Source: a virus (Duplodnaviria > Heunggongvirae > Uroviricota > Caudoviricetes). From it: a stretch of 20,176 nt of DNA. A program made the position numbers and the translations under genes. Numbering within the stretch: the stretch's first letter is position 1; each line of letters starts with the position of its first letter. Location of the stretch: the IMG/VR virus record IMGVR_UViG_3300015179_000039. One strand, 5' to 3'. The notes beneath the pieces are model-generated. The model was not told where the DNA came from. It saw only the letters and a program-made list of their open reading frames with translations, and did no database searches. Shown one piece after another: positions 266 through 20,126 of this stretch.

Positions 266-300
266 ACAAGCCCTCGCGTTGAGGGCTTTACTGATTTTTT
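266..300 (+). terminator. probable rho-independent terminator after grxA
   Basis: GC-rich hairpin agccctc-gcgtt-gagggct directly after the grxA stop, followed by a T-run (tactgatttttt). Coordinates approximate. Confidence 0.45.
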
Positions 301-665
301 CTGTGCTGTGGTTTAAACAAACTACTGATAAATAAGAAACACAGTGCCCCCAGCGCACACCAGAACACCGCGCTTAGTAACCATGCCAGCTCTTGCCAGA
401 ATGAGCGCGTCGGTGAAAAAAACAGCCGCATAATGAGCATCGAACAGGGTGCCGCCAGCATTGCGCCAAACAGAGGTTTCAGGACTTCTCTACGCTGTGA
501 AAAGAAGCTGGCGACTGCTCCAGGAAGAATGAAAAATAGCAAGCCGATTTCAGGATGCCCGGCAGCCCGAAAAGCGCCTTTCATGTGCGTCGCCAGAAAA
601 AGGCACACCACAATGAAGAGGACAAAACAGCAGATTGCCCCCGCCCAACGTTGTTTATGTTTCAC
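288..665 (-). CDS. ybjM: inner membrane protein YbjM
   Basis: 125-aa hydrophobic ORF with several predicted TM helices, convergent with grxA and divergent from ybjL as in E. coli. Plus-strand ORFs 433-678 and 555-752 are its antisense shadows. Confidence 0.85.
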   Translation of the reverse strand: MKHKQRWAGAICCFVLFIVVCLFLATHMKGAFRAAGHPEIGLLFFILPGAVASFFSQRREVLKPLFGAMLAAPCSMLIMRLFFSPTRSFWQELAWLLSAVFWCALGALCFLFISSLFKPQHRKNQ

Positions 666-934
666 TCGTTCCTCCTGACACTGCGTCTATCGAACACATT
701 TTTCGCCAGTGTGGCGTTCAGTAAGATAAAGCCGCTTCGCATTCCATGCTAATATAGGCCAACGCAATTCATATAGCCGTTGATACCTAATGTGATTACA
801 CTAGTAAAATATATTGTTACTTTACTATCGTTTAGGTGCGCTGAATGAATCTGCGCCCTGAATTCTGGTAAAAAACATTATCGTAAATTACCATTTCTTT
901 CAACAGCTTACTAGTAAACAAGAAGTTAGCCTCC

Positions 935-2620
935 GTGAATATAAACGTCGCCGAATTGTTAAATGGGAATTACATTCTGTTATTATTTGTGGTCCTCGCG
1001 CTTGGGCTATGTCTCGGAAAGTTACGACTTGGTTCGATCCAACTGGGTAATTCCATTGGCGTTTTAGTCGTATCGCTGTTATTAGGCCAACAACATTTCA
1101 GCATTAACACCGATGCGCTTAATCTTGGCTTTATGCTGTTTATTTTCTGCGTCGGGGTCGAAGCCGGACCGAACTTTTTTTCCATTTTTTTTCGCGATGG
1201 GAAAAATTACCTAATGTTAGCACTGGTGATGGTTGGCAGTGCGCTGGTGATCGCCTTAGGGTTAGGTAAGCTGTTTGGCTGGGATATTGGCCTGACGGCC
1301 GGTATGTTAGCAGGCTCTATGACGTCGACACCGGTTCTGGTCGGTGCTGGCGATACACTGCGTCATTCCGGCATGGAAAGCAGGCAGCTCTCACTGGCAC
1401 TGGATAATCTGAGCCTCGGGTATGCCTTAACCTATTTAATCGGTCTGGTGAGTTTGATTGTTGGTGCGCGTTACTTGCCGAAATTGCAGCATCAGGACTT
1501 ACAGACCAGCGCCCAGCAAATCGCCCGCGAACGTGGCCTGGACACTGATGCCAACCGTAAGGTTTATTTACCGGTGATCCGCGCCTATCGCGTCGGCCCG
1601 GAACTGGTGGCCTGGACCGACGGCAAAAATCTGCGTGAACTGGGTATTTATCGACAAACCGGCTGCTACATTGAACGTATTCGACGTAACGGGATTCTGG
1701 CAAATCCAGACGGTGATGCCGTGCTACAAATGGGCGATGAAATAGCGTTGGTAGGCTATCCCGACGCCCATGCCCGACTCGATCCCAGCTTCCGTAACGG
1801 TAAAGAAGTTTTCGATCGTGACCTTCTCGACATGCGTATCGTCACTGAAGAAGTGGTCGTTAAAAACCATAACGCTGTAGGTAAACGTCTCGCACAACTG
1901 AAGTTGACCGATCACGGTTGCTTCCTTAACCGCGTCATTCGTAGCCAGATTGAGATGCCGATAGATGACAACGTCGTGCTTAACAAAGGTGACGTTTTAC
2001 AAGTCAGCGGCGATGCCCGCCGCGTAAAAACCATCGCCGATCGCATCGGCTTTATCTCGATTCACAGCCAGGTCACTGACCTGCTGGCATTCTGCGCCTT
2101 CTTTGTTATTGGGCTGATGATCGGGATGATCACCTTCCAGTTCAGCACATTCAGTTTCGGCATGGGGAACGCTGCCGGGTTGTTATTCGCCGGAATTATG
2201 CTGGGCTTTATGCGTGCTAACCACCCGACCTTCGGTTACATTCCGCAGGGTGCATTAAGCATGGTGAAAGAGTTCGGCTTGATGGTGTTTATGGCAGGCG
2301 TTGGTCTGAGCGCCGGTAGCGGTATTAATAACGGCCTGGGCGCGATTGGCGGTCAGATGTTGATTGCCGGATTGATTGTCAGTCTGGTGCCCGTGGTTAT
2401 CTGTTTCTTGTTCGGTGCTTATGTATTGCGAATGAACCGCGCGCTGTTGTTCGGCGCAATGATGGGCGCACGTACCTGCGCGCCGGCAATGGAGATCATC
2501 AGTGATACAGCTCGCAGTAACATCCCGGCGCTGGGCTATGCGGGCACCTATGCAATCGCCAACGTCCTGCTGACGCTGGCAGGGACAATCATCGTCATGG
2601 TATGGCCAGGATTAGGATAA
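935..2620 (+). CDS. ybjL: putative AAE-family transporter YbjL
   Basis: 561-aa ORF with a GTG start ([20 protein letters not shown]...). Membrane domains flank a central soluble region; length and sequence match E. coli YbjL as I recall it. Confidence 0.92.
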
Positions 2621-2732
2621 AACTGAAGTTGCCCTGAAAATGAAATTTTTTTGCACAACCGCAGAACTTTTCCGCAGGGCATCAGTCTTAATTAGTGCCA
2701 CTGCTTTTCTTTGATGTCCCCATTTTGTGGAG

Positions 2733-2778
2733 CCCATCAACCCCGCCATTTCGGTTCAAGGTTGATGGGTTTTTTGTT
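2733..2778 (+). terminator. rho-independent terminator (host side of prophage junction)
   Basis: Perfect 10-bp inverted repeat cccatcaacc / ggttgatggg with a 17-nt loop, followed by ttttttgtt. The T-run is only on the plus strand, so it likely terminates ybjL-side transcription. Confidence 0.5.
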
Positions 2779-4265: not shown

Positions 4266-4747
4266 GACAGAAGCCCTCCCACCGTTTTACTGATATCGCT
4301 TAAGGCAGACGTTGCCGTGTCCTGCAGATTATTCAGTTGCGCACGGAGATCACCGAACATATCGGACAGGGATTCATCCACTCGTTTGAGCGACAGGGTG
4401 AACTCAATCCGGCGCGGCATACCGTCGCGGAAAAACTCCGTTTTAGTCTGATTCAGTCCCTCAATCACATACATGCCGTAAATCGTGCCGCTGCCTTCAA
4501 TCAGGGGCCATGCTTTCCCCTGTTCTGCCATCTGCTCCAGTGCCAGCAACGACAGCCTGCCGCCTGTTATCTCCGGCATAAGAACACCGGAAAGCGTCAG
4601 CATGTCGTTTTCCGGTCCCAGAAACTGCGTGGACGGACGACGATTTACCCGACTGTTTGCCGCATGTCGCCAGCTGCGTTGATACTGCAGTTCCTGATAC
4701 GGAACGGTGCGCAGCATAAACACGTACAATCCCAGCACCATCATCAT
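4262..4747 (-). CDS. U: tail protein U
   Basis: 161-aa ORF (MMMVLGLYVFMLRTVPYQELQYQRSWRH...) resembling P2 gpU, sited between T and D. Stop overlaps the D start. Confidence 0.88.
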   Translation of the reverse strand: MMMVLGLYVFMLRTVPYQELQYQRSWRHAANSRVNRRPSTQFLGPENDMLTLSGVLMPEITGGRLSLLALEQMAEQGKAWPLIEGSGTIYGMYVIEGLNQTKTEFFRDGMPRRIEFTLSLKRVDESLSDMFGDLRAQLNNLQDTATSALSDISKTVGGLLS

Positions 4748-7700
4748 GCGTCGTATCCCCCCTGATCGCTGTAGTTACTCCTGGCTTTTGCCTTCAGCCT
4801 GCGTTCACGTTCATCAAGCTGGCGTGCCACCTCCCGCGCAATATCCTGCGCACTTTGTCCTGGCTGCGTCTGAATGATGATCTGCGTCGGTGCCTCAATC
4901 CGTTGAACGAGCGGCACAGTGGCTGCGCGACTCACAATTGCTTCTCCACCTTTCGCGGGAAGTGCCAAAGGGTGCAACGGTGGAAGCTCTGCTGGCGCGG
5001 CAGCAACGCCCATCATTCCGGCAACAACGGCAGCCAGTGCAGCTGTATTTCTCCGGCTGGTCACATTTGCCGGGCCGTTAACAATTTCCGGCCCGTTTTC
5101 ACCGACGATGCCAAACTGCCCGCGCGGGATATACCCGCCGCTGTCATACATCCCCGCAAAGCCATATCCCCATGATGGAAAACCACCCGATGGCATCATC
5201 ACTTTACCGTCTGCATTCACCGTCGCAGGTTGCTGACGCGTCACGCTTTCCGGCAGTTTTGCCTTTGCGGCCTCTTTACTGACAATGCCGAGCTTCTCCA
5301 GCAACCAGGAAACGCCGGATTTCAGGGAGTCCAGCGGATGCATGACCATATTCAGCCCTTCTGCCAGTGCCTCCCCGAATCGTCGCCCCATTGCCGCTGC
5401 GCTCTGCAGTTCGGCAGAGGTCGACTTAACGGGCGTCAGCAGATCAGTAAACCAGCCCCACAGCGCCTGCACTTTGTCGCCAATCCACTGGAACACGGGC
5501 TTAAGCGGTTCGAACGCTGCACTGATGGGACCTGCCGCCGCTTTGAATCCTTCCACCACGCCACCGAGAAATGCGGTGATGGGTTGCCAGTATTTCCAGA
5601 CAACCAGCGCCACGCCCGCCAGTGCAGTAACCACAAGACCTATCGGACTGAGCAGAGCACCTAACAGACCAGATATGGCATACAGGGTAACGCGCAGCAT
5701 CGCCAGTGGACCAGATGCCAGTACTCGCAGCACCGTGCCTGCGGCGGCCAGTCCACCGCGCAGTACCGCCAGAGGATTCATAAACATCACAGCAACAGCA
5801 CGTAAACCGGATAATCCAGACCGCAAAAGTGCAACCGGCGCACCTGCTACAGTTTTCAGGACATTTCCCGTCAGTGATGCCGTGCGGCGCAAAGACGACA
5901 ACGGCGCAGTAAGTAAACCTGCGGCGTTGCCCGATGAAGCAAGCCCGCGTCGCAGCAGTGCCAGTGGTGCGCCAGCCAGCCAGGACAACGCGCTGCTTGT
6001 TCGAGTTACTGCTGCCGTAACGGAAGGTAACGTTTTGATACCCAGCACAGAGAATCCCAGACGGATCACTGCCAGCGGCCCCAGCACTGCAGCCAGCGCC
6101 ACCGCTAAGGTGCCGAGGCCGACGGTAACCGCAGCCACAACAGCCGATGCTTTCATCAGTGTGCCTGTCAGTTCCGGGTTAGCTTCCACCCAGCGACGCA
6201 ACGCCCCCGTGACGCTTTTCACCGTGTACAGAATATCCATCAGCGGCTGGCGCAGCGTTTCGCCCAGGCTGCTGAAGGTGTTCTGCGCTCCGGTTTTGAC
6301 CAGCAACCACTGCGCAGAAAGTGAGTCTTTGTTGATGTCGGATTCTTTCTGCATGGAACCGAGCGCATCATTGCCCGCTGTCAGTTTTAGCTGGCGCTGC
6401 AGTTCCGGCAGGTTGTTTGCCAGTTTCGCCGCGTCATCACCAAACTCTTTACCAAACAACATGGTCATGGCAGACAGACGCTTGTCCTGCGGCAGTGCGT
6501 TCACCTTCTCCAGCACACGCTGGATAGTTCCCATCGCATCCTTCGTCATCTGCTTTTCAATCACTTCAGGATTGAGTTTCAGCAGATTCATCCCTTCAAA
6601 GAAACTCTTGCTTTGCATGGTGGCAATGGACAATTCACGCACCATCGCGTTTGCTGCACTGGCTGCAACCTCCGGCGCAGCGCCCAGTGTCAGAAAGGTA
6701 GAACCCAGTGCCGCCGCTTTACGATAATCCAGACGGTCAGCCACACCGCCCAGACGTTGCATCACATCAATGATGTCCGCCCCTTTCGACATGGCGTTAT
6801 CATCCAGATAGTTCAGCGCATCGCCGAGCTGTTCAATATTGCGGGTAGGTATTTTGTAGAGCTGGGCGATTTTCCCCAGACTTTCTGACAGTTCATCCGC
6901 TGGCAGCTCAAAGGCTGTTGCCGCCTTTGCTGCCGTACTGGCGAAGGCCAGCAGGTCACGTTTCTGGTCTTCCCAGCTGTCGTCAGGGTTTGCGACGTTC
7001 ATGCGCGCACCACCTTCAACCAGTGCAGCGAAGTCCACCGCACCGTTTTCCATCGGCAACTGTTCGCTGGCAGCCTTGATGGCATCCTGCATTTCATAAA
7101 AACGTGCAGTGCGGTTGCCATTATCGTCACGCAGACCATTGACCTGCTTTGCCACACCTTTCATGGCATCTTCCATGCTGGTATAGCTTTTTACTGCCGC
7201 CATCACTGGCGCACCCATTGCCAGCCCTGCAGCCGTGGTAGTGGCTCCGGCTCCTGCAATACGGTCGCGCACCTCCAGCGAACGGGCATAACTGGCACGC
7301 GCCGCATTCATCCTGCGCTGAGCTTCACCCAGTCGCTTCAGCCGCGCCTCCTGTTTCGACAATTCCTGGTTATAACGTGATGTTTCACGGGCTAAACGGG
7401 CAGTTGCTCCCGCATCATCTTTCGCAGAAATTCCCGCCCGGTACAGTTCTGCACGCACAAGCGCCGTTTGCTTCTGCAAATATTTTTGTTGTTCTTCCAG
7501 GCGTTGGACTGCCAGCGTTTGCCGACCTAAAGCCACAAGGTGCCGTTGTGATGGTTGTTCCATCGCCTCCAGCTCAGAGCTAAGCAAATTAGCCTTCTGT
7601 CTGGCATAGTTCAGCCTGTCGCCTAACTTCTTGTTATCGGCCTGCAGCTTGCGAAATTTTTCCAGGCTGTTACCCGCCTGATTGAGTTGCTTTAATGCGT

Positions 7701-7821
7701 CACGGGAGTTTCTGATTGCACCAGCCAGCTCTTTCGAACTGGCCTGTGCAGCACGGAATGGGCGGGTGAGTTTGTCAACCGCATTAAGAATGACCTGCAG
7801 GCGCAGGTTATTATCACTCAT
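4744..7821 (-). CDS. T: tail tape measure protein
   Basis: 1025-aa ORF with a coiled-coil-rich N-terminal half and Ala/Gly/Leu-rich degenerate repeats near residues 580-720, in the P2 gpT position after E/E'. Several long plus-strand ORFs in 4855-6888 are antisense artefacts of this GC-rich gene. Confidence 0.9.
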   Translation of the reverse strand: MSDNNLRLQVILNAVDKLTRPFRAAQASSKELAGAIRNSRDALKQLNQAGNSLEKFRKLQADNKKLGDRLNYARQKANLLSSELEAMEQPSQRHLVALGRQTLAVQRLEEQQKYLQKQTALVRAELYRAGISAKDDAGATARLARETSRYNQELSKQEARLKRLGEAQRRMNAARASYARSLEVRDRIAGAGATTTAAGLAMGAPVMAAVKSYTSMEDAMKGVAKQVNGLRDDNGNRTARFYEMQDAIKAASEQLPMENGAVDFAALVEGGARMNVANPDDSWEDQKRDLLAFASTAAKAATAFELPADELSESLGKIAQLYKIPTRNIEQLGDALNYLDDNAMSKGADIIDVMQRLGGVADRLDYRKAAALGSTFLTLGAAPEVAASAANAMVRELSIATMQSKSFFEGMNLLKLNPEVIEKQMTKDAMGTIQRVLEKVNALPQDKRLSAMTMLFGKEFGDDAAKLANNLPELQRQLKLTAGNDALGSMQKESDINKDSLSAQWLLVKTGAQNTFSSLGETLRQPLMDILYTVKSVTGALRRWVEANPELTGTLMKASAVVAAVTVGLGTLAVALAAVLGPLAVIRLGFSVLGIKTLPSVTAAVTRTSSALSWLAGAPLALLRRGLASSGNAAGLLTAPLSSLRRTASLTGNVLKTVAGAPVALLRSGLSGLRAVAVMFMNPLAVLRGGLAAAGTVLRVLASGPLAMLRVTLYAISGLLGALLSPIGLVVTALAGVALVVWKYWQPITAFLGGVVEGFKAAAGPISAAFEPLKPVFQWIGDKVQALWGWFTDLLTPVKSTSAELQSAAAMGRRFGEALAEGLNMVMHPLDSLKSGVSWLLEKLGIVSKEAAKAKLPESVTRQQPATVNADGKVMMPSGGFPSWGYGFAGMYDSGGYIPRGQFGIVGENGPEIVNGPANVTSRRNTAALAAVVAGMMGVAAAPAELPPLHPLALPAKGGEAIVSRAATVPLVQRIEAPTQIIIQTQPGQSAQDIAREVARQLDERERRLKAKARSNYSDQGGYDA

Positions 7822-8250
7822 CGTTGGCCCCGCTTCTCTGAATCGCTTTATACCGCCATTCCAGCACTTCGGTCAGCGGCATAACGTCAGTAACGGATGG
7901 CGGCCAGTGAAAGATGGTGGCGATATCAGCCACCAGATCGTCAACCGTCAGGCTGTCGGTAAACCGGCAAGCACCGACTTCTTCAACAAAAAAGTGACAA
8001 CCTCAACCGACATGGCAGTGAGATCTGCCGGGTCCATCTCTGCAATTTCCTGTGCAGTCAGTGCCGGACTGGAGATGCGGGGGATCACGGTCATCATCGC
8101 GTTCACATCCATATCCATAATGGCCTGCAGGCGTGTACCGCGCAGCGCACCGGACTGCGGTTTACGCAGCACAATTTCGGTGATTTCTGTTTTACCGCGC
8201 TTGATGGGGGTATCCAGTTGAATAGTCTTTTCAGTCTGCTTATCGCTCAT
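7814..8250 (-). CDS. E: tail assembly chaperone E+E' (programmed -1 frameshift product)
   Basis: Slippery heptamer T TTT TTG on the minus strand at about 7987-7993, in frame as ACT-TTT-TTG near the 3' end of E. The -1 frame is open for 57 codons (VEEVGACRFTDSLTVDDLVADIATIFHWPPSVTDVMPLTEVLEWRYKAIQRSGANDE) and stops at 7814-7816, 8 nt inside T. This matches the known P2 E/E' arrangement. Confidence 0.75.
7948..8250 (-). CDS. E: tail assembly chaperone E (zero-frame product)
   Basis: 100-aa ORF immediately upstream of T and downstream of FII, the P2 gpE position. Confidence 0.85.
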   Translation of the reverse strand: MSDKQTEKTIQLDTPIKRGKTEITEIVLRKPQSGALRGTRLQAIMDMDVNAMMTVIPRISSPALTAQEIAEMDPADLTAMSVEVVTFLLKKSVLAGLPTA

Positions 8251-8304
8251 TTTGCTGTCCTGTAAATTGGGTTCTGGCGCGGTATCCCGCGCCGTTCAGA
8301 TACA

Positions 8305-8820
8305 TCAGAGGCCGAGGGCGTTGCGGTGCGCTTCCATCAGGTCCACACCGTCCACAATTTCCACCATGTTGATAAGGTCCACTTCATAGAGCACCTCACC
8401 ATTTATAGTCAGCTTCGCGTAGCTGTTGGTACTGGTCACTTTGGTGGTGTTGCTTTCGCCCGTCTTCCACTCGCCGGAATCCACTTCTTTGTGACGTCCA
8501 CGCACCACAAGCTCCACGGCCTGCACTTCCCCGGTATCGTCACGCTGGATAGAGCCGGTAAAGCGCAGCTGGATGCCATCCACAGTGGCTTTGCCCATCT
8601 GCTTAAACAGCAGCAGTTCAGTACCACCAATGGAAAATTCTGTGTCCAGAGCACTGTCATCAAGCCCCAGATCCACATCCACTGCACCCGGCATTCCGCC
8701 GCCGCGATACTTCTCATATTTGCGGGTGAATTTCGGCAGTGTCAGCGACTCAACGATCCCCTGCCAGTTGTTCCCGTCGTTAAACAGGTTCAGGTGTTTT
8801 AATTTGCGTGGTAAAGCCAT
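8305..8820 (-). CDS. FII: tail tube protein FII
   Basis: 171-aa ORF (MALPRKLKHLNLFNDGNNWQG...) directly downstream of the sheath gene; size and position match P2 FII. Confidence 0.9.
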   Translation of the reverse strand: MALPRKLKHLNLFNDGNNWQGIVESLTLPKFTRKYEKYRGGGMPGAVDVDLGLDDSALDTEFSIGGTELLLFKQMGKATVDGIQLRFTGSIQRDDTGEVQAVELVVRGRHKEVDSGEWKTGESNTTKVTSTNSYAKLTINGEVLYEVDLINMVEIVDGVDLMEAHRNALGL

Positions 8821-8829
8821 GTTGTCCCC

Positions 8830-10002
8830 TTACGCGCTAACCTGGCTGGCAAAATTCACCAGGTACTGATCGGTGATGCGCTGGCGCAGCATCAGGTTTT
8901 CAAGTGGCGGCACTGGCGTGTAGTCGTAGTCGATGGTGAGCTTCCCGGCTTTCAGCGTGTCTTTATCGTTCACCGACTCGTCCAGCCAGCAATCACCACC
9001 AATGAGATAGCCCTGACTGACCAAGCTGCGCATTTTGGCGCGGATACCTTCGATAATGTCGCGCGCCAGCGACGGGTTCAGCGGTTTGTCCACCGCCCAC
9101 ATGTGCGCTTCTGCCATCGTGTCCGTCAGCACCTGCGCCGTGCGGGTGTAGTTTTCGAAGGCAAAGAGCGGGTCATCACTCAGGCAGCGGGAACCCCAGA
9201 AGCGGAAACCGTCTTTACGCACAAGTGTGGTGACGTCGTTCTGGTTCAGCAGACCTGCATCGGTTGCCGGGTCCTGCAGATCCCAGAACACATCTGCAGA
9301 AATTCCGGTGACACCGTTCACGCCCACGTTGGACAGGCTTTTGTGCCATCCGGTCTGCTCGTCAATTTTGGCGCGCAGACCAAGCGCACGGGCGGTGGCA
9401 TATGCCGTTGCTTCGGCATTCAGCACCGTGTCCCAGCCAGTAAAGTCAGGCCAGATCAGCATTCCTTCGCGCTGGCTGAAGTTTTCACGGTAAGTGATCG
9501 CCTCCTGTACCGTCTTGCAGCCATACGCTGACAGGTAAGCAAATCCACGCAGTCTTTGCGCCACGCTCAGCAACTCAGTAGCTACCGCCTTGGTGTCGTG
9601 GCCTGGCACGCCGAGAATGCGCGGTTTAACGCCGAGCTGTGACTGGGCAGATAGCAGGGCTTTCATGCCTGTTTTTTTACCTTCAGCAGTCACAGCGCCG
9701 ATGATATTGGTCGTGGTTTCGTCTTCCGTTTCACCCTGCGGCACACGCACAACAACGGTCACGGGTTTTGCCTGGTCAGCGATGGCATCCAGCGAACGGG
9801 CCAGCGTGCCGGACTCACCCGCTTTACCGCTGGCAGTCAGCACATCAGTGATCAGCACGGGTTTATTAAGAGGAAACATTTTTGCATCGGCATCATCGCC
9901 CGTGCAGACCATACCCACGATGGCGGTGCTCACTGTGGTAATAGATCGGGTGCCTTCGTTGACTTCAACAACGCGCACCCCGTGGTGGTAATCCTGAGCC
10001 AT
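8830..10002 (-). CDS. FI: contractile tail sheath protein FI
   Basis: 390-aa ORF ([30 protein letters not shown]...) of sheath size, first gene of the FI-FII-E-T-U-D block. Confidence 0.92.
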
Positions 10003-10144: not shown

Positions 10145-10717
10145 TCAGGGGGATTCATTGCTCTTATTTGCCGGAAATTTTCTATAAATTGTGGAAACAC
10201 CTACATCAAAAATCAGTGCAATACGCTGTCTTGATTCTCCAGCCTCGAGTAAACGTCCAATCTGTGCCCACTGTTCGGTGGTCAACTTAGGACGGCGTCC
10301 ACCTACTCTGCCTTTGGCGCGAGCTGCAGCAAGCCCCGCCCTGGTACGTTCAACTATCAGTTCGCGCTCCATTTCAGCCAGGGCCCCCATGACATGAAAA
10401 AAGAAACGGCCCATTGGGGTACTGGTATCAATACTGTCAGTCAGGCTTCGGAAATTCACGCCGCGCTGGCGCAACTCTTCTATCAGCGTAACAAGATGCC
10501 GCATACTGCGCCCCAACCTGTCCAGCTTCCAGACAACCAGTGTGTCACCTGCCAATAGTGTCCTGAGCAGTTTTTTAAGCCCCGGTCTGTCGGACTTAGT
10601 GCCACTGATTTTGTCCTCAAAAATCCGCTCACATCCCGCGCAGTTCAGTGCATTACGTTGCAAATCGGTGTTCTGGTCATTTGTTGATACGCGTACATAG
10701 CCAATAAGCATGATCAT
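10145..10717 (-). CDS. serine recombinase, DNA invertase (Hin/Gin/Pin/Cin/Min family)
   Basis: 190-aa ORF with N-terminal resolvase catalytic motif (IGYVRVSTNDQ, catalytic Ser) and a C-terminal HTH (GESRQRIALIFDVGVSTIYRKF). Lies adjacent to an inverted-repeat-bounded tail-fibre cassette. Confidence 0.93.
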   Translation of the reverse strand: MIMLIGYVRVSTNDQNTDLQRNALNCAGCERIFEDKISGTKSDRPGLKKLLRTLLAGDTLVVWKLDRLGRSMRHLVTLIEELRQRGVNFRSLTDSIDTSTPMGRFFFHVMGALAEMERELIVERTRAGLAAARAKGRVGGRRPKLTTEQWAQIGRLLEAGESRQRIALIFDVGVSTIYRKFPANKSNESP

Positions 10718-10738
10718 CCCCCTGAATAAAAACCGGAG

Positions 10739-11113
10739 ATGATGCCAGTTAGCCGTTATCTCTGCATTTTCTTAAACGTTGGTTTGGGAGAAGCGGCAAA
10801 ACGAAATGTGGGAACAGGGGAAAATCAGATACCTGATATGTCATCATATGCATCAGGTTCAGGCTGGCGAAAAATGCCAGATGGTTCAATTGAACAGTGG
10901 GGACGAATTAGTTTTCCTGATGAACACGGGCCTGTATCCGCCAATGTTTCATTCCCGATTCCATTTACACAGACACCGGGCATTGTAATTGTGTGCGATG
11001 GTGGTTTCGGGGGCGGGAATATGTGGGGGGCGACCAACTGGAGCACTACCGGCTTCATAGCTCACTGCAATTATGGTCTTGAAGGTGGTGCGTTTTTCGC
11101 TAAGGGTTGGTAA
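10739..11113 (+). CDS. silent alternative tail-fibre C-terminal cassette (Sv'-like)
   Basis: The ORF has no credible own start. It shares the LGLGE junction with H at the crossover site and continues with an unrelated Gly-rich C-terminus (...[14 protein letters not shown]...). Only codons after about 10792 would be used after inversion. Confidence 0.7.
10767..10792. repeat. recombination site (hix/gix-like), invertase-proximal
   Basis: ttttcttaaacgttggtttgggagaa; its reverse complement TTCTCCCAAACCAACGTTTAAGAAAA resembles Hin hixL (TTCTTGAAAACCAAGGTTTTTGATAA, recalled from memory). Inverted partner of the site at 12577-12602. Coordinates within 2 nt. Confidence 0.6.
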
Positions 11114-11556
11114 TGATGAAATATCTGTACGTAAACAACCTGGCATATCCTTACGAACTTCAGTCTCTTTATGTTGAAAAAGGTGAATGGCCGGAAGAAA
11201 AAGGTGTTGATATAGACGAAGTAATTTTCAGGGAATATTTCTATGATACACCACCAGAAGGAAAATACAGATGTGTCGGAGAGGATGGACTGCCTGCATG
11301 GGCAGATATTCCTCCACCAACACGTGAAGAACAAATTGCATCAGCCGAAACTAAAAAGCAGCAATTGATTAATCAGGCCAACGAATACATCAACAGTAAA
11401 CAATGGCCAGGTAAAGCATCAATTGGTCGTCTGAAAGGTGAGGAACTGGCGCAATATAATTTGTGGCTGGATTATCTGGACGCACTGGAACTGGTCGATA
11501 CTTCCGGTGCGCCAGATATTGAATGGCCTACGCCTCCGGCAGTTCAGGCCAGATGA
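11107..11556 (+). CDS. tail fibre assembly protein (alternate, partner of the silent cassette)
   Basis: 149-aa ORF with the C-terminal tail-fibre-assembly signature (...[25 protein letters not shown]), shared with the convergent tfa at 11528-12130. Start overlaps the end of the Sv' cassette. Confidence 0.85.
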
Positions 11557-12130
11557 CATCCGGCGCGGTGCTGGTATCTGTTGCCGTCACCGCGTCAATG
11601 TAATCCAGCACAGCGTTAAGCCGGGTTGTTTCTGCCTGCGTCAGTTTACGTCCGGCCTGCAATTTCAGTTGAATCAGACTGATGGAAGCCATTGCAGTAT
11701 CAATCAGCGACTGGCGCTGTGCTTCTGCTGCATCTACTGCGGCGCTATGCTGTGCCTCGGTATCCGTCACCCATTTCTCACCATCCCATTTATCGTATGG
11801 CGTTAATGGGGCGATAGTGGTTGTATTTTCAGGGTAATCACCCGGAGCTGTGATTTCTTTTGATTCTCCTGTTTCAGTGCTATAGACCGTTTCACCGCGA
11901 TGGTCTGGCACATATTCCCATGAGTTAAGATCTGCAGAACGGCAAATTGCATAACCAGCTTTATATGAGCTAGGAGCATCTAAACAGGAACTTGCCGGGA
12001 TACCGACGCCGACAGCGATATATTCATTTGATGTGGAAATATATTCCCGTGTTTCGCCATCATAGTTATAGACGGTAATATTCCCCGCCTTCGTGGCAAT
12101 AAGCTCGATATTTAATACGGCTTTATTCAT
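11528..12130 (-). CDS. G: tail fibre assembly protein (currently expressed orientation)
   Basis: 200-aa ORF immediately downstream of H, with C-terminal ...[25 protein letters not shown] typical of gpG/Tfa chaperones. Confidence 0.85.
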   Translation of the reverse strand: MNKAVLNIELIATKAGNITVYNYDGETREYISTSNEYIAVGVGIPASSCLDAPSSYKAGYAICRSADLNSWEYVPDHRGETVYSTETGESKEITAPGDYPENTTTIAPLTPYDKWDGEKWVTDTEAQHSAAVDAAEAQRQSLIDTAMASISLIQLKLQAGRKLTQAETTRLNAVLDYIDAVTATDTSTAPDVIWPELPEA

Positions 12131-13638
12131 CAGGCTGCCCTCACGATATAGTTAAATGCAATATTCCGTGGGCGAGTATCGGCAGGAACGACATACATTT
12201 CACCAATTGCCCGCTCATTAGAGTTGTTAAGCAATAGGCTTGAGCCATTACTGTCATGACCCGTAATTAAGATATCATTGGACAAAATAAGTGAGCCCGT
12301 ACCTGCAGGAATACCATAAATTCCCATATCAAATTTAATATAACCAACACGCGCGCTCTGTGCAGACATAACGCTGCGACCAGTATCTACTGAACGACCA
12401 TCATCCCAGCCACGAATAAATTCACCGCGTAAATCAGGCAATTTATTGGTCGGGTAAGCCCTTGCCAGTTCCGGGTATTCTTCAGCAGAAAAAGCCGCAC
12501 CATTGCATTTCAGCCAGCCTGTTGGCGGAGTGGCTGAAGGCCACGGAACAGGCACCCCAACCGGTAATGCAGAGCCTTCTCCTAAACCAAGGTATGTGAG
12601 AAGACCAGCTACATCCTTTCCACTCAAATTAGTCAGCGTATTGTCCAGCGGTTGTTTACCTGCCAGTGCATTAAGCATTGTCGTGGCAAAGTTCGGGTCA
12701 TTCCCCAGCGCTGCCGCCAGTTCGTTCAGTGTATCCAGTGCCGCAGGTGCAGAACCCACCATTGCCGCAATTGCCGATTTCACAAAAGCCGTGGTGGCAA
12801 TCTGTGTATTGTTGACCGACTGTGCCGCAGTAGGTGCGGTTGGCGTTCCGGTGAGTGCCGGACTCGACAGCGGCGCTTTCAGTGCCAGCGCATTGTTAAT
12901 GGTGGTACTGAATTTCGGATCATTGTTAATGGCTGCGGCTATTTCTTTCAGCGTGTCCAGCGTGGCTGGCGCACCATTAATAAGAGCCGTCAGAGCCGCC
13001 TGAACAAACGCGGTGGTCGCAATCTGCGTAGTATTATTCCCCGCCGCTGGCGTTGGCGCTTTGGGGGTTCCGGTAAACGTCGGACTTTCTTTGAGTGCAT
13101 ACTGTGAATGCGGGTCCGGTGCGGCAAGATGTTTTGCCATCTGATCATCCGCGTACACCTTCAGCTCCAGTGCCTTGTCATCCACATACTTGCGGGTTGC
13201 CAGCACTACGGCAGGGTCGATTTTCAGGGTGATATTGTCCGTACTGCTGGTAATCAGCACCATGCGCACGGTCTGAGTGCGCCCGCTACCTTCAGCCAGT
13301 TGCGGCTTATAGCTTTCCGGGCAGTTGCCCACGGCAATCAATGCCCCGGACTCATCAAACAAGCCCACTTCACGTATCCACCAACCGCCCTCGTTTTCAG
13401 GGATCACCTGTTCGGCAATAATCTGGCTGCTGTTCTGCGGGTCGATATAGAGCATATTCAGCGCAGCCCGGCGTTTCTCATTTACCAGTGCAGTCTGCTT
13501 TGAGTCTGGCGTTGGCAATACTCCGCCGCCATCGCCGACCGCCATATGGGTAATTTTTAGCGGCACACCGAGCGCGGCGGCGCTGGCAAGTTTCGCCGCG
13601 CCAATATCCGTCAGCAGGGTATAAAATTTTGTGCTCAT
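12130..13638 (-). CDS. H: tail fibre protein H
   Basis: 502-aa ORF with a P2 H-like N-terminus (MSTKF...MAVGDGGG), two tandem modules of about 72 aa, and a variable C-terminal domain after the LGLGE crossover motif (residues about 351-354). Confidence 0.9.
   Translation of the reverse strand: MSTKFYTLLTDIGAAKLASAAALGVPLKITHMAVGDGGGVLPTPDSKQTALVNEKRRAALNMLYIDPQNSSQIIAEQVIPENEGGWWIREVGLFDESGALIAVGNCPESYKPQLAEGSGRTQTVRMVLITSSTDNITLKIDPAVVLATRKYVDDKALELKVYADDQMAKHLAAPDPHSQYALKESPTFTGTPKAPTPAAGNNTTQIATTAFVQAALTALINGAPATLDTLKEIAAAINNDPKFSTTINNALALKAPLSSPALTGTPTAPTAAQSVNNTQIATTAFVKSAIAAMVGSAPAALDTLNELAAALGNDPNFATTMLNALAGKQPLDNTLTNLSGKDVAGLLTYLGLGEGSALPVGVPVPWPSATPPTGWLKCNGAAFSAEEYPELARAYPTNKLPDLRGEFIRGWDDGRSVDTGRSVMSAQSARVGYIKFDMGIYGIPAGTGSLILSNDILITGHDSNGSSLLLNNSNERAIGEMYVVPADTRPRNIAFNYIVRAA
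12577..12602. repeat. recombination site (hix/gix-like) inside H
   Basis: ttctcctaaaccaaggtatgtgagaa; the first 14 positions match the reverse complement of the 10767-10792 site at 13 of 14. It sits on the codons for YLGLGE of H. Confidence 0.6.
12649..13086 (-). repeat. tandem duplication of a module of about 216 bp (72 aa) within H
   Basis: Protein repeats GTPKAPTPAAGNNTTQIATTAFVQAALTALINGAPATLDTLKEIAAAINNDPKFSTTINNALALKAP and GTPTAPTAAQSVNNTQIATTAFVKSAIAAMVGSAPAALDTLNELAAALGNDPNFATTMLNALAGKQP, with the corresponding direct DNA repeats. Confidence 0.8.
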
Positions 13639-15141: not shown

Positions 15142-15487
15142 TCTCTGCTCCTGTTGATACGGAAAGGGACACAGGCACACCGTTATTCCGCCGCCCGGTC
15201 AGCTCCACCACCATAGAACCGTCAAAGTTGCTGTTGATGGTGATGGAATCCAGCGTCAGCCGTGGCTCCCAGCGACTCAGCGCCACATACACTGCCGACA
15301 TGACCTGCAGGCGTAATGCCGGATTTTGTGGCTAATCTATCAGTGCCGACAGTAGGGAACCATATTCCCGACGGGCAATGCGGCTACCCTGCGGCGTCAG
15401 CAGAATGTCCCGCACCGACTGGCGCAGATGGTCAATATCAGTAATGACTTTGCCGCTGGTATTGTTCATCCCGCTATAAAGCGTCAT
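15128..15487 (-). pseudogene. W: baseplate protein W interrupted by an in-frame TAG (amber) at codon 52
   Basis: Reading the minus strand from the ATG at 15487 (ATGA overlap with the V stop) gives MTLYSGMNNTSGKVITDIDHLRQSVRDILLTPQGSRIARREYGSLLSALID, then TAG at about 15332-15334, then 67 more in-frame codons (PQNPALRLQVMSAVYVALSRWEPRLTLDS...) ending 13 nt inside J. The ORF track shows no minus-strand ORF of 60 aa or more across this interval. Confidence 0.7.
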
Positions 15488-16062
15488 ACCGGGCCTCCGG
15501 TTGTGTCGCCGCCTTTCAGGACGCCAGTATGCTGATGTGCATCAACCACAATTCCGTTAGAACTCATTGCACCGCCGCCCTGGGTAACACCACCATTGAT
15601 CACTACTTCGCTGTTAATACGCGTGCGGTCAGCCTCCAGCACAAACTCACTGGTTTTCAGGGTGATGTTGTCGGCAGCCTCAATGACCATGGATTTGATG
15701 CCCCTGACATACCAGCGCCCGGTGGCGGGTTCGTATTCAAACCAGCCACCGTCAGGATGTTCTGTCACGCAGGCGTCCGCCGACGTCGAAGGTGGCGCGA
15801 ACTGATTCGAATAGACAGCGGGCAACGCAAAGGCGGTTTCCAGATTGCCTCCCAGACTCAGCAGCACCACCTGCTCACCTTCCGATGGTCGCCACCATGT
15901 GCGGGCATTCCCGGCACGCAGCGTCAGCCAACTGATCCAGTTAGTTTCAAGGTCGCCCGTTTTCACCCGGCAAAGCCAGTTCTCCCGGTCCACTTCGGTA
16001 ACTACACCTGTGCGGATCAGGTTGGTGATAAGGCGCATGATTTCGGTTAATTGTGCGTTCAT
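15484..16062 (-). CDS. V: baseplate spike/hub protein V
   Basis: P2 V-like sequence from the ATG at 16062 (MNAQLTEIMRLITNLIRTGVVTEV...), about 192 aa. The track ORF 15484-16305 adds an N-terminal extension through AT-rich non-coding DNA, which I reject. Confidence 0.9.
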   Translation of the reverse strand: MNAQLTEIMRLITNLIRTGVVTEVDRENWLCRVKTGDLETNWISWLTLRAGNARTWWRPSEGEQVVLLSLGGNLETAFALPAVYSNQFAPPSTSADACVTEHPDGGWFEYEPATGRWYVRGIKSMVIEAADNITLKTSEFVLEADRTRINSEVVINGGVTQGGGAMSSNGIVVDAHQHTGVLKGGDTTGGPV

Positions 16063-16108
16063 AGATATATGATGACAGATGAAAATTTGTTTATAACTTC
16101 TTGCAAAT

Positions 16109-16126
16109 TGTGGTATCGATGGTACA
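16109..16126 (-). promoter_or_regulatory. candidate Ogr-binding element (TGT-N12-ACA) of late promoter PV
   Basis: tgt-ggtatcgatggt-aca centred about 55 bp upstream of the V start codon, closer to the ATG than expected for a -55 site. Overlaps the likely promoter of the divergent AT-rich gene. Confidence 0.35.
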
Positions 16127-16165
16127 AATTGACAAAAGGATAAAAAACAACCAATAGGTGGATAA

Positions 16166-16972
16166 ATGAGTGTTATGAATCCAATAAGTTCTAATATATT
16201 TAATGCTGAATTTTTAAACACCCCGGCAGCGGCACTTGCCGCATGGATTTCCATTATTGGAGCTGTTATAACTTTGGTGACGATAGTTATAAGAGCACTA
16301 TTCAAATATAGAAAATCTCATGATGTAATTTTGAAAAAATCAGGAATACCTGCGTTTATATTAAATTTCTTTCTTATAAAAATATCATTAAAAAGGCTGC
16401 CTACTATCACATGGGCTGAAAAATCATTCACGGTTCTATTTTCGCTTCTTTTTTTGTGTGCAATTTATCTTTTTGGTCCAGTTTTCATCCAAGCCATTAG
16501 AACCCCACCAAATAGCACATTGCTTTATTGGATAAAGTCCGGTGAATCATTTTATATGTCAAAAAAAATGGCGACTGCAGCTACAATATTAACCACTCCT
16601 GATTGGGAAATATCAAAGGATGATTGCGAAGAGTCATCCTCTGCCAGTACAGAGAAGTACAAATCATTAACTATCGAACATAAAGAAATTCTTTGTAAAC
16701 TACTAACCACTGATGAAGGGAATGCTTACATTGATGAAGAAGTCAAGAATTTCGTTAAAGACAAATTTTTTATCTATTCCTTTGCCCCAACAACTATATT
16801 TATTCTATTATGGATTTCTTTGGGTTTTATACTGACCATTCACTATTCTAAAAAAGTTAGAAAATATATTCTAACTGAACAAAAAAATGCAATTCATTGG
16901 GCATATGGTGAATTCAAGACAGAAGGAATCTATTCAATATATCAAGAGTTAGAACATAAGACTCACCATTAA
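16166..16972 (+). CDS. AT-rich moron gene: hypothetical multi-pass membrane protein
   Basis: 268-aa ORF with ATG start and an AGGTGG Shine-Dalgarno 6 nt upstream. GC content is visibly far below the flanking tail genes. Predicted TM helices near residues 20-45, 88-110 and 205-230 (possibly one more at 60-75), plus a charged loop of about 95 aa. No motif I recognise. Confidence 0.7.
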   Translation: MSVMNPISSNIFNAEFLNTPAAALAAWISIIGAVITLVTIVIRALFKYRKSHDVILKKSGIPAFILNFFLIKISLKRLPTITWAEKSFTVLFSLLFLCAIYLFGPVFIQAIRTPPNSTLLYWIKSGESFYMSKKMATAATILTTPDWEISKDDCEESSSASTEKYKSLTIEHKEILCKLLTTDEGNAYIDEEVKNFVKDKFFIYSFAPTTIFILLWISLGFILTIHYSKKVRKYILTEQKNAIHWAYGEFKTEGIYSIYQELEHKTHH

Positions 16973-17360
16973 GACCCAGCAGGCGGCGCTCTGCGTAACG
17001 GACCTCCGGTCCTTTGCGACTGACGCGATCACGCAGGCCGTAATGGTGAACACGGGCAATACGCTGCACCTTGCCTTCAAACTGTACGCTGGCAGAGTCG
17101 GCGCTGGCGGCAGTTTTCAGGTATTTTGTGGTGCGCAGCTTTGCAAACATCTGACGTTTGATGCGGCCTTTTTTGCTGCGTGCTGTTACCCTGCGCGGTT
17201 CATAACTGCTGCCATCTGGATTGCGCTGCATCCTGATATTCTGCTGCTGTGTCCGGCGCAGTTCCTGCGCCAGCTGGCGCATCATGCGGCTTCTCGTGGC
17301 TGGTTCCAGATTCGCCAGCAAGGCACTCAGCCAGTCGTCCACCTTCTGCAGTTCAGCCAC
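16914..17360 (-). CDS. S: tail completion protein S
   Basis: 148-aa ORF (MAELQKVDDWLSALLANLEPATRSRMMRQLAQELRR...) in the P2 gpS position after R. Its last 19 or so codons lie in AT-rich DNA antisense to the moron gene. Confidence 0.85.
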   Translation of the reverse strand: MAELQKVDDWLSALLANLEPATRSRMMRQLAQELRRTQQQNIRMQRNPDGSSYEPRRVTARSKKGRIKRQMFAKLRTTKYLKTAASADSASVQFEGKVQRIARVHHYGLRDRVSRKGPEVRYAERRLLGLNGESYVLTLDILNRFLLS

Positions 17361-19599: not shown

Positions 19600-20126
19600 C
19601 AGATAAGCTCCACTGTGCAGTGCGGCGCATCCTGCACCCGGCTGATGGCCCAGCGGGCGTCACGCCACAAATCACCGCTGGATTCCGCCAGTTCCTCGCC
19701 CCGCTTCACACCGGATGCCGTGGCGTCATAGTCCTGATAACGCTCGTTGAGCATGGCGCGTGCCCAGCAGTAAACCGCGTTGAAATAGTGATGAATGCGC
19801 TCACTTTTGCCGTCCAGCTGTTCAGCCGGAACCTCTGCCAGCGAGGCATATCCCAGCATCTGCTGACGTCTGCGAAACTCATACAGCTCTGCGTTGACCT
19901 CCGAAATTGCCGACAGCGCAACCTGCTTTAAACGCGGCTGCGTCACCGTGCCGTCAGTGCGCATCACGCTGCGAAACTCCGACAGGTCCACATCAGGCCA
20001 GAACGGTGTATTTCTGATGATTTCCGCCTGTTCCGGTGCCTGTTCTGGCGCAACAAACTTCATGCTGCTTTCTCCTGAAATAGAGGGCGGTGGACGGAGT
20101 TTTGATGTGGCTGTGCCTTTCGCCAC
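19599..20126 (-). CDS. L: head completion/stabilisation protein L
   Basis: C-terminus ...RVQDAPHCTVELI and position upstream of X match P2 gpL. Start is either the track ATG at 20126 or the ATG near 20063 (MKFVAPEQ..., preceded by AGGAG). Confidence 0.85.
   Translation of the reverse strand: MAKGTATSKLRPPPSISGESSMKFVAPEQAPEQAEIIRNTPFWPDVDLSEFRSVMRTDGTVTQPRLKQVALSAISEVNAELYEFRRRQQMLGYASLAEVPAEQLDGKSERIHHYFNAVYCWARAMLNERYQDYDATASGVKRGEELAESSGDLWRDARWAISRVQDAPHCTVELI

What the first reader, a model, noticed from the sequence alone, without database searches (positions are those of the whole stretch)
7814..8250. Programmed -1 ribosomal frameshift site (TTTTTTG) producing E+E'
Seen in sequence: the heptamer T TTT TTG lies in the correct register near the 3' end of E at about 7987-7993. 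The -1 frame is then open for 57 codons and stops 8 nt inside the T start. This extension is too short to appear in the supplied ORF track. Established knowledge: P2 E/E' uses the same slippery sequence, and the arrangement is the conserved tail-chaperone frameshift analogous to lambda G/GT.
Basis: partly seen in the sequence, partly recalled or inferred. Interest (0 to 1): 0.45.

Follow-up and report, generated by a model that had tools for sequence, protein, structure and literature searches.

The report
P2-type tail chaperone frameshift site
This is the well-known programmed -1 ribosomal frameshift that lets P2-family phages make two tail-assembly chaperones (E and E+E') from one gene start; here it sits in a very common E. 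coli prophage, so it is real and functional but ordinary.

Summary
On the minus strand, gene E (8250..7948, 100 aa) contains T_TTT_TTG at 7993..7987 in the X_XXY_YYZ register. From there the -1 frame is open for 57 codons, and its stop (7816..7814) ends 8 nt inside the tape-measure gene T (ATG at 7821).

The motif alone is not above chance. Homology and conservation establish it. E matches Pfam Phage_TAC_7 and the extension alone matches Phage_P2_GpE (68 bits). The fusion aligns without gaps across the junction to P2 E+E' (49% identity, E 4e-51). P2, 186 and FLC5 share the same heptamer and a 57-codon extension, and P2 has the same 8-nt overlap with T.

In 71 unique close relatives the heptamer is invariant apart from a G/A change at its seventh base. 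Synonymous variation in E collapses from the slip site onward (p = 3e-4). The -1 frame is therefore translated from the slip site, not from the RBS-less GTG at 7933 that RefSeq annotates as a separate 39-aa gene. No convincing stimulatory structure was found. An upstream SD-like GAGGT is only a weak lead.

Verdict: already known biology with a routine annotation gap, and low interest.

The parts
7948..8250 (-). Gene E, the tail assembly chaperone (zero-frame product, 100 aa)
   Evidence: It is an ORF from ATG 8250 to TGA 7950..7948. It matches Pfam PF10109 Phage_TAC_7 at 1e-18 (67.5 bits, cutoff 25) and phrog_103 at 4e-44. The exact protein occurs on >=1000 public contigs named 'phage tail assembly protein'.
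7987..7993 (-). Slippery heptamer T_TTT_TTG, with zero-frame codons ACT TTT TTG (E codons 86-88)
   Evidence: The register was checked. P2, 186, FLC5, ENT90, phiCTX, 3LV2017 and RsoM1USA have the same heptamer at the homologous position. Among 80 close relatives, 77 have TTTTTTG and 3 have TTTTTTA. The third positions of codons 86 and 87 are invariant in 71 unique sequences, although about 90% of free third positions upstream vary.
7814..7987 (-). E' extension: 57 sense codons in the -1 frame plus the TGA stop, translated only as the C-terminal part of E+E'
   Evidence: Translation is. The extension alone matches Pfam PF06528 Phage_P2_GpE at 4e-19 (68.2 bits, cutoff 23), phrog_1756 at 2e-22 and phrog_6416 at 3e-21. 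Variable sites by -1-frame codon position are 8/5/21 in its 3' part.
7948..7987 (-). Dual-coding overlap: E codons 89-100 overlap the first 13 codons of E'
   Evidence: Synonymous variation in E collapses here. Invariant third positions are 7 of 12, against 7 of 75 upstream (Fisher p = 3e-4). Mean third-position entropy is 0.17 against 0.79 (Mann-Whitney p = 3e-5).
8003..8005 (-). TGA in the -1 frame that sets the 5' limit of the zone where a shift can reach E'
   Evidence: It is seen in the three-frame translation. It is not conserved in relatives, because its first base is the variable third position of E codon 82.
7931..7933 (-). Internal GTG (Val in E+E') that RefSeq and GenBank records use as the start of a separate 39-aa 'GpE family phage tail protein'
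   Evidence: The separate annotation appears in CP019275.1, phage Cartapus and NZ_CP030281.1. Its anti-SD complementarity is the weakest of 12 starts tested, at -2.5 kcal/mol against a gene-interior median of -3.1. The 18 -1-frame codons upstream of it are conserved as protein in P2, 186 and ENT90.
4744..7821 (-). Gene T, the tape measure protein. Its ATG at 7821..7819 overlaps the end of E+E' by 8 nt (ATGAGTGA)
   Evidence: It matches PF10145 PhageMin_Tail at 1.9e-18. P2 has the same 8-nt overlap, with E+E' ending at 19857 and T starting at 19850. In 78 of 80 close relatives an ATG lies 8 nt before the end of the extension.
8305..8820 (-). Gene FII, the tail tube protein, immediately upstream of E
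   Evidence: It matches PF04985 Phage_tube at 8.8e-60.
8830..10002 (-). Gene FI, the tail sheath protein, first gene of the FI-FII-E-T-U-D block
   Evidence: It matches PF04984, PF17482 and PF22671.
8000..8004 (-). Candidate upstream SD-like element GAGGT, 6 nt before the heptamer. This is a weak lead and not established
   Evidence: The best anti-SD duplex is -6.3 kcal/mol at -14..-6, with calibrated p = 0.118 for this window. The combined p over 12 non-independent genomes is 0.0015. The synonymous G of codon 83 (GAG) is invariant in 71 sequences.
7955..7978 (-). Local hairpin GUCGGU...ACCGAC, 8 nt downstream of the heptamer. It is not supported as a stimulator
   Evidence: Fold z-scores are -0.36 (60 nt) and -1.46 (107 nt). 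There are no compensatory changes, and one pair is broken in 12 of 71 relatives. It is not shared by P2, 186 or other relatives.

Best explanation
Ribosomes translating gene E of this P2-family prophage mostly terminate at 7948 and produce the 100-aa chaperone E. A minority slip back one base when tRNA-Phe occupies the P site on UUU and tRNA-Leu occupies the A site on UUG of U_UUU_UUG (7993..7987). These ribosomes read 57 further codons in the -1 frame and stop 8 nt inside gene T, giving the 145-aa fusion E+E'. By analogy with P2 E/E+E' and lambda G/GT, the shared E domain binds the tape measure protein T, and the E' domain recruits the tail tube subunit. The fixed slip frequency sets the E:E+E' ratio needed for tail assembly.

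Shown here: the site, its register, the homology of both parts, the conservation of the heptamer, and selection on the -1 frame from the slip site onward. Inferred from P2 and lambda: that slippage actually occurs in this prophage, its frequency, and the roles of the two proteins.
For: The sequence geometry is exact. E matches PF10109 and the extension matches PF06528, both well above curated cutoffs, with matching PHROG tail families. The fusion is 49% identical to P2 E+E' over 139 aa with no gap at the junction, E 4e-51.

The P2 reference record annotates E+E' as a -1 frameshift join at the same heptamer with the same 8-nt overlap of T. P2, 186, FLC5 and this window all have TTTTTTG followed by a 57-codon extension. 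In a tblastn search of phage records with the fusion, 386 of 419 matching records cover at least 80% of it, and the listed matches do so in two pieces, one per frame.

Among 80 close relatives, 77 have TTTTTTG, 3 have TTTTTTA, and none has a stop in the -1 frame. Distant genera keep an in-register slippery heptamer at the homologous position. Suppression of synonymous variation starts at the heptamer and covers the whole E/E' overlap, with p = 3e-4 and 3e-5. The alternative GTG start has no RBS. Published accounts agree: PMC3091744 and PMC3931495 for P2-like phages, and PMC5009743 for the lambda G/GT mechanism and its 30:1 ratio.
Against: There is no direct evidence of the fusion protein for this prophage. 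The heptamer and the open -1 frame are individually within chance expectation. No significant or covarying downstream structure was found, and the upstream SD-like element is not individually significant, so nothing identified here would raise efficiency above the basal slippage of the heptamer. The primary P2 paper (Christie et al. 2002) could not be read, so the roughly 10% efficiency and the essentiality of E' rest on my recollection of it.
Confidence: 0.92

Rival explanations
1. E' is an independent small gene translated from the GTG at 7933 as a 39-aa protein, as RefSeq and GenBank annotate it, and no frameshift is needed.
For: PGAP and the phage Cartapus record annotate it this way. The 39-aa protein is listed on >=994 contigs. 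The Pfam GpE domain (residues 19-55 of the extension) lies almost entirely downstream of the GTG.
Against: This GTG has the weakest anti-SD match of 12 starts tested, below the background median. The 18 -1-frame codons upstream of the GTG are never interrupted in 71 unique relatives and are conserved as protein out to P2, 186 and ENT90 (V-E-G...F...L-x-V-D/N-D-L). Synonymous sites of E are constrained across the whole overlap, which lies entirely upstream of the GTG. For P2, the E' frame is reported to lack a ribosome-binding site (PMC3931495, citing Christie 2002).
Confidence: 0.03
2. The frame change is made by RNA polymerase slippage on the T6 run, through a one-base deletion or two-base insertion in the mRNA, rather than by the ribosome.
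For: The site is a homopolymer run of six T. Smp131 and Vibrio 1F53_PE003 have T7. Sequence analysis alone cannot separate the two mechanisms for a homopolymer.
Against: From established knowledge, efficient bacterial transcriptional slippage generally needs runs longer than six. The X_XXY_YYZ register is kept in every relative examined, which only ribosomal slippage requires, although conservation of the Phe-Leu residues could also keep it. The Mannheimia relative has GGGAAAG and Citrobacter Shae_phiSM has AAATTTT at the equivalent position. These are non-homopolymeric heptamers that work for tRNA re-pairing but not for polymerase slippage.
Confidence: 0.04
3. The heptamer is a chance occurrence in a decaying prophage. 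E' is no longer expressed and there is no functional recoding.
For: The motif statistics are within chance. The element is a prophage of unknown activity.
Against: There is strong purifying selection on the -1 frame and on the heptamer across 71 unique relatives. All neighbouring tail genes are intact. Near-identical modules occur in isolated, viable phages such as Cartapus and Klebsiella phage 4LV2017.
Confidence: 0.01

Closest known systems
Bacteriophage P2 E / E+E' programmed -1 frameshift (Christie et al. 2002; NC_001895 genes P2p25/P2p26)
   Same: Both have the heptamer T_TTT_TTG in the same register within the motif ...V-[GT]-F-L. Both have a 57-codon -1 extension, an 8-nt overlap of E+E' with the T start, and the gene order FI-FII-E-T-U-D. 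Both parts are homologous, with 49% identity overall.
   Different: E is 100 aa rather than 91 aa. The zero-frame tail after the heptamer is 39 nt rather than 21 nt, as in Erwinia phage ENT90. The residue at the position of the annotated E' start is Val (GTG) rather than Met (ATG). The prophage belongs to a different genus-level lineage, nearest to Elveevirus (phage Cartapus, Klebsiella 4LV2017), and carries an invertase-controlled tail-fibre region that P2 lacks.
Escherichia phage Cartapus / Klebsiella phage 4LV2017 (Peduoviridae, Elveevirus) and E. coli prophages such as the one in CP019275.1
   Same: They are 97.7-99.9% identical in DNA over 7700-8400 and have identical E, heptamer and E'.
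   Different: There is no biological difference. Those records annotate E' as a separate 39-aa CDS rather than a frameshift join.
Phage lambda G / GT tail assembly chaperone frameshift (Levin 1993; Xu, Hendrix and Duda 2004, 2013, 2014)
   Same: Both have two overlapping ORFs between the major tail or tube gene and the tape measure gene, joined by a -1 slip near the end of the first ORF. This gives a short abundant chaperone and a rare extended one (PMC5009743).
   Different: There is no detectable sequence similarity: only PF10109 and PF06528 are hit, not the lambda gpG or gpT families. Lambda uses a different heptamer (G_GGA_AAG, from my own knowledge) and has a non-contractile tail.
E. coli dnaX -1 frameshift (A_AAA_AAG with an upstream SD-like element and a downstream hairpin)
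   Same: Both use a bacterial X_XXY_YYZ -1 slip site. Here an SD-like GAGGT lies a few nucleotides upstream.
   Different: No supported downstream hairpin was found. The SD-like element is weak, more closely spaced than in dnaX, and not statistically established.

Membership tests
P2-type E/E+E' tail chaperone frameshift (Peduoviridae) | An E-like chaperone ORF located between the tail tube gene (FII) and the tape measure gene (T) | tested here: met
   E matches PF10109 at 67.5 bits (cutoff 25). It is flanked by FII (PF04985) and T (PF10145), all on the minus strand.
P2-type E/E+E' tail chaperone frameshift (Peduoviridae) | An in-register X_XXY_YYZ slippery heptamer (T_TTT_TTG in P2) near the 3' end of E | tested here: met
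   TTTTTTG lies at 7993..7987 as ACT|TTT|TTG, 39 nt before the end of E. P2 has the same heptamer, annotated as the frameshift site.
P2-type E/E+E' tail chaperone frameshift (Peduoviridae) | A -1 frame extension homologous to P2 E' (Pfam Phage_P2_GpE) | tested here: met
   The extension alone matches PF06528 at 68.2 bits (cutoff 23). The BLASTP alignment to P2 E+E' runs without a gap across the junction.
P2-type E/E+E' tail chaperone frameshift (Peduoviridae) | E' has no translation initiation site of its own | tested here: met
   The only candidate start, GTG 7933, has an anti-SD duplex of -2.5 kcal/mol, the weakest of 12 starts and below the gene-interior median.
P2-type E/E+E' tail chaperone frameshift (Peduoviridae) | E+E' terminates overlapping the start of T | tested here: met
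   The overlap is 8 nt (7821..7814), the same as in P2. It is conserved in 78 of 80 close relatives.
P2-type E/E+E' tail chaperone frameshift (Peduoviridae) | Selection acts on the slip site and on the -1 frame from the slip site onward | tested here: met
   The heptamer is invariant apart from G/A at its seventh base, and synonymous variation is suppressed in the overlap with p = 3e-4 and 3e-5. The -1 frame shows a 3rd-position bias of 8/5/21 variable sites.
P2-type E/E+E' tail chaperone frameshift (Peduoviridae) | The fusion protein is actually produced by -1 frameshifting, and E' is essential for tail assembly | not testable with these tools
   This needs proteomics, reporter assays or genetics. 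It was shown for P2 only (Christie et al. 2002, not readable here).
Lambda G/GT family (sequence membership) | Sequence homology to lambda gpG or gpT | tested here: not met
   The Pfam scan of E, E' and the fusion returned only PF10109 and PF06528. The relation to lambda is an analogy of arrangement and role (PMC3931495, PMC5009743).
Lambda G/GT family (functional arrangement, Xu et al. 2004) | Two overlapping ORFs joined by a -1 slip, positioned between the tail tube or major tail gene and the tape measure gene | tested here: met
dnaX-type stimulated -1 frameshift | A downstream stem-loop or pseudoknot 5-9 nt after the heptamer | tested here: inconclusive
   A 6-bp hairpin starts 8 nt downstream, but the folds are not better than shuffles (z = -0.36 and -1.46). 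There is no covariation, one pair is broken in 12 of 71 relatives, and the hairpin is absent in P2 and 186.
dnaX-type stimulated -1 frameshift | An upstream Shine-Dalgarno-like element that pairs with 16S rRNA | tested here: inconclusive
   GAGGT lies at 8004..8000 with a duplex of -6.3 kcal/mol and calibrated p = 0.118. The combined p over 12 related genomes is 0.0015, but the genomes are not independent and conserved K/E-V residues are a confounder.
Transcriptional slippage site | A long homopolymer run is the only requirement, independent of reading register | tested here: not met
   The run is only 6 T. The register is strictly conserved, and the relatives MhaA1 (GGGAAAG) and Shae_phiSM (AAATTTT) use non-homopolymer heptamers at the same position.

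The most novel reading that the evidence does not exclude
The P2-family T_TTT_TTG slip site may not be stimulator-free, as the literature states. It may be boosted by an upstream Shine-Dalgarno-like element (GAGGT at 8004..8000; AAGGTG in P2 and 186; GAGGTG in RsoM1USA and in 42 of 71 close relatives) that pairs with the 16S rRNA 3' end, as in dnaX. The invariant synonymous G of codon 83 would be its footprint.
Probability: 0.15. Interest if true: 0.3.

Novelty: already known. Interest (0 to 1): 0.1.

Why it matters
Biologically this adds nothing new. The E/E+E' frameshift was demonstrated in P2 in 2002 and has repeatedly been noted as conserved in P2-like phages. The practical value is for annotation. 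In this very common prophage lineage, present in 1,002 of 5,426 complete E. coli genomes, public records call a spurious stand-alone 39-aa 'GpE family' gene, and the true 145-aa E+E' product is absent from a 15-billion-protein collection. Anyone building tail-protein catalogues, proteomics databases or engineered P2-like particles or tailocins from such records would miss the real fusion protein.

Tried and rejected
1. Motif statistics as evidence. Heptamer counts and -1 ORF length are within chance, so I did not use them as support.

2. Downstream stimulatory structure. Folds of 60 and 107 nt are not better than shuffles. The local hairpin at 7978..7955 shows no compensatory change and is not shared by P2, 186 or other relatives. 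I rejected it as an established part of the site.

3. Upstream SD-like stimulator. My first uncalibrated comparison looked striking. A calibrated block-minimum test gave p = 0.118 for this window and only a modest combined trend across related genomes. I kept it as a weak lead only.

4. Rfam: no family matches the site; the only hit in the window is RybB.

5. NCBIfam: no model hits E, E' or the fusion.

6. PDB sequence search: no solved relative at E <= 1.

7. The primary P2 paper (PMC135442) is not held. One literature search failed on term syntax each time.

8. I did not run structure prediction, fold search or the large protein-homology searches.

Full report
**1. What is in the sequence**

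All relevant genes lie on the minus strand. Gene E runs from ATG at 8250 to TGA at 7950..7948 and encodes 100 aa. The minus-strand sequence around the site is GTT GAG GTT GTC ACT TTT TTG TTG AAG AAG. TTTTTTG therefore occupies 7993..7987, with zero-frame codons ACT|TTT|TTG, which is the X_XXY_YYZ register.

Reading from base 7987 in the -1 frame gives 57 sense codons (VEEVGACRFTDSLTVDDLVADIATIFHWPPSVTDVMPLTEVLEWRYKAIQRSGANDE) followed by TGA at 7816..7814. The tape-measure gene T (1025 aa) starts with ATG at 7821, so E+E' ends 8 nt inside T. The predicted fusion is 145 aa.

The -1 frame is closed by a TGA at 8005..8003, so a ribosome can enter E' only between 8002 and 7948. The heptamer is the only in-register slippery site in E.

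**2. Is it more than chance?**

The motif alone is not. The window has 72 X_XXY_YYZ heptamers per strand against about 92 expected, and about two TTTTTTG are expected per strand. A -1 frame open for at least 57 codons is found at 12% of codon positions in FI, FII, E and T. The case must rest on homology and conservation, and it does.

**3. Homology**

- E matches Pfam PF10109 (Phage_TAC_7, 'tail assembly chaperone proteins E, 41 or 14') at 1e-18.
- The 57-residue extension alone matches PF06528 (Phage_P2_GpE) at 4e-19, full length of the model and 68 bits against a cutoff of 23. PHROGs gives matching tail families.
- The neighbours are the sheath FI, tube FII, tape measure T, gpU and gpD. This is the P2 FI-FII-E-T-U-D operon order, followed by ogr in a near-identical prophage.
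- The fusion is 49% identical to P2 E+E' over 139 residues with no gap across the junction, E 4e-51.
- The P2 reference record annotates E (91 aa), E+E' (a join), a 'site of -1 translational frameshift' immediately after the same TTTTTTG, and the same 8-nt overlap with T.
- P2, 186, FLC5 and this window all have TTTTTTG followed by exactly 57 codons.

**4. Conservation**

A tblastn search with the fusion finds 419 phage records. Of these, 386 cover at least 80% of the query, and the listed matches do so in two pieces, one per frame.

Among 80 close relatives from IMG/VR (85-97% identity), 77 have TTTTTTG and 3 have TTTTTTA. In 78 of them the extension is 57 codons long and ends 8 nt after an ATG. 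The other two are one truncated contig and one with a mutated stop.

In more distant genera an in-register slippery heptamer sits at the homologous place:
- TTTTTTG in ENT90, phiCTX, 3LV2017 and RsoM1USA
- TTTTTTT in Smp131 and a Vibrio phage
- TTTTTTC in VHML
- GGGAAAG in a Mannheimia phage
- AAATTTT in a Citrobacter phage

**5. Which frame is translated, and from where?**

The nearest database records (E. coli CP019275.1 at 99.9%, phage Cartapus, RefSeq NZ_CP030281.1) annotate E' as a separate 39-aa gene starting at GTG 7933. I tested this rival in three ways.

- *Ribosome-binding site.* The GTG has the weakest anti-SD complementarity of 12 starts in the window, at -2.5 kcal/mol. This is below the median of positions inside gene T.
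- *Protein conservation upstream of the GTG.* The 18 codons between the heptamer and the GTG are never interrupted in 71 unique relatives, change only conservatively, and are recognisably conserved in P2, 186 and ENT90.
- *Synonymous-site profile of E in the 71 unique relatives.* This is the most direct test. Upstream of the slip site, 68 of 75 free third positions vary. The third positions of heptamer codons 86 and 87 are invariant, and codon 88 shows only G/A. In codons 89-100, which form the E/E' overlap and lie entirely upstream of the GTG, 7 of 12 third positions are invariant. Fisher p is 3e-4, and third-position entropy is 0.17 against 0.79 with Mann-Whitney p of 3e-5.

A second coding constraint therefore begins at the heptamer. 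Downstream, the -1 frame shows the classic third-position bias, with 8/5/21 variable sites by codon position.

**6. Mechanism**

The best-supported mechanism is simultaneous tRNA slippage. tRNA-Phe in the P site re-pairs from UUU to UUU. tRNA-Leu in the A site re-pairs from UUG to UUU, keeping two of three pairs. The next codon read is then GUU. The tRNA details are inferred from established knowledge of X_XXY_YYZ sites.

Transcriptional slippage is a weak rival. The run is only six T, the register is strictly conserved, and some relatives use non-homopolymeric heptamers.

I found no convincing stimulator. Downstream folds do not beat shuffled controls, with z of -0.36 and -1.46. A 6-bp hairpin 8 nt downstream (7978..7955) shows no compensatory change, loses a pair in 12 of 71 relatives, and is not shared by P2 or 186. 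This agrees with Lynch et al. 2010, who report no hairpins in KS5, KS14 or KL3 and cite their absence in P2 (PMC3091744).

An SD-like GAGGT lies 6 nt upstream of the heptamer, and the synonymous G of its GAG codon is invariant. The calibrated test gives p = 0.118 for this window and 0.0015 combined over 12 related, non-independent genomes. The conserved K/E-V dipeptide is an obvious confounder. I report it only as a lead.

**7. Function**

By homology with P2 and analogy with lambda G/GT, E and E+E' are tail assembly chaperones. The common domain would bind the tape measure and the extension would recruit tube subunits. Coupling through a fixed-frequency slip sets their ratio. The lambda G:GT ratio is about 30:1 (PMC5009743).

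From my recollection of Christie et al. 2002, P2 frameshifts at about 10% and E' is essential. That paper was not available to me. None of these functional points can be tested with sequence tools.

**8. Comparison with what is known, and novelty**

This is a member of the P2 E/E+E' family on every feature I could test. It resembles lambda G/GT in arrangement and role but not in sequence. Relative to P2 the differences are minor:
- E is 100 aa rather than 91 aa.
- The zero-frame tail after the heptamer is 39 nt rather than 21 nt, as in ENT90.
- The residue at the annotated E' start is Val rather than Met.

The lineage is Elveevirus-like and very common, with the module present in 1,002 of 5,426 complete E. 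coli genomes.

The only new point is about annotation. The exact 145-aa fusion is absent from a collection of about 15 billion proteins, whereas the artefactual 39-aa E' is called on at least 994 contigs and E on at least 1,000.

**9. Verdict**

The biology is already known and the interest is low (0.1). The most novel reading not excluded is SD-like stimulation of the P2-family slip site, with probability about 0.15 and modest interest if true.

Noticed in passing
window 7814-7933 (minus strand) and public records CP019275.1, OV696611.1, NZ_CP030281.1: Public annotation, including PGAP/RefSeq and the phage Cartapus record, calls E' as a stand-alone 39-aa 'GpE family phage tail protein' from an RBS-less GTG. 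The exact 145-aa fusion is absent from a collection of about 15 billion proteins, while the 39-aa fragment occurs on >=994 contigs.
   Followed up: yes
window 8000-8004 (minus strand), 6 nt upstream of the heptamer: An SD-like GAGGT is present, and it reads GAGGTG in 42 of 71 close relatives. The synonymous G of codon 83 is invariant. Similar AAGGTG or GAGGTG stretches occur upstream of the slip site in P2, 186 and RsoM1USA. This may be a dnaX-like stimulator, but it is not statistically established (p = 0.118 here).
   Followed up: partly
window 288-2778: The left end of the window is host DNA: ybjM (288-665, minus strand), ybjL (935-2620, plus strand; Asp-Al_Ex and TrkA_C domains) and the sRNA RybB (2700-2778, 105 bits). 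This copy of the prophage therefore abuts rybB, whereas the near-identical prophage in E. coli E308 sits next to ssrA. The attachment site was not mapped.
   Followed up: partly
window 10145-13638: A Hin/Gin-type serine recombinase (10145-10717; Resolvase and HTH_7 domains) sits next to oppositely oriented tail-fibre C-terminus and tail-fibre-assembly genes (10739-11556 on the plus strand, against 11528-12130 and 12130-13638 on the minus strand). This looks like an invertible host-range segment, which P2 itself lacks. A simple inverted-repeat search (minimum 18 nt) did not find clear crossover sites.
   Followed up: partly
window ~16000-16950: An AT-rich island (GC 0.30-0.37, against about 0.55-0.60 in the flanks) sits in the late-gene block between J (ending near 15180) and the ORF at 16914-17360, where the E308 prophage has baseplate gene V directly next to the virion-morphogenesis gene. 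It carries a 268-aa ORF on the opposite strand (16166-16972) matching DUF6216. PADLOC gave no hit. It is probably a moron or accessory gene.
   Followed up: partly
L090 (Mannheimia phage phiMhaA1) 694-700; L091 (Citrobacter phage Shae_phiSM) 655-661: These relatives have non-T-run heptamers (GGGAAAG, AAATTTT) at the position equivalent to the P2 slip site. Their records annotate only E, so the E' extension is unannotated there as well.
   Followed up: partly
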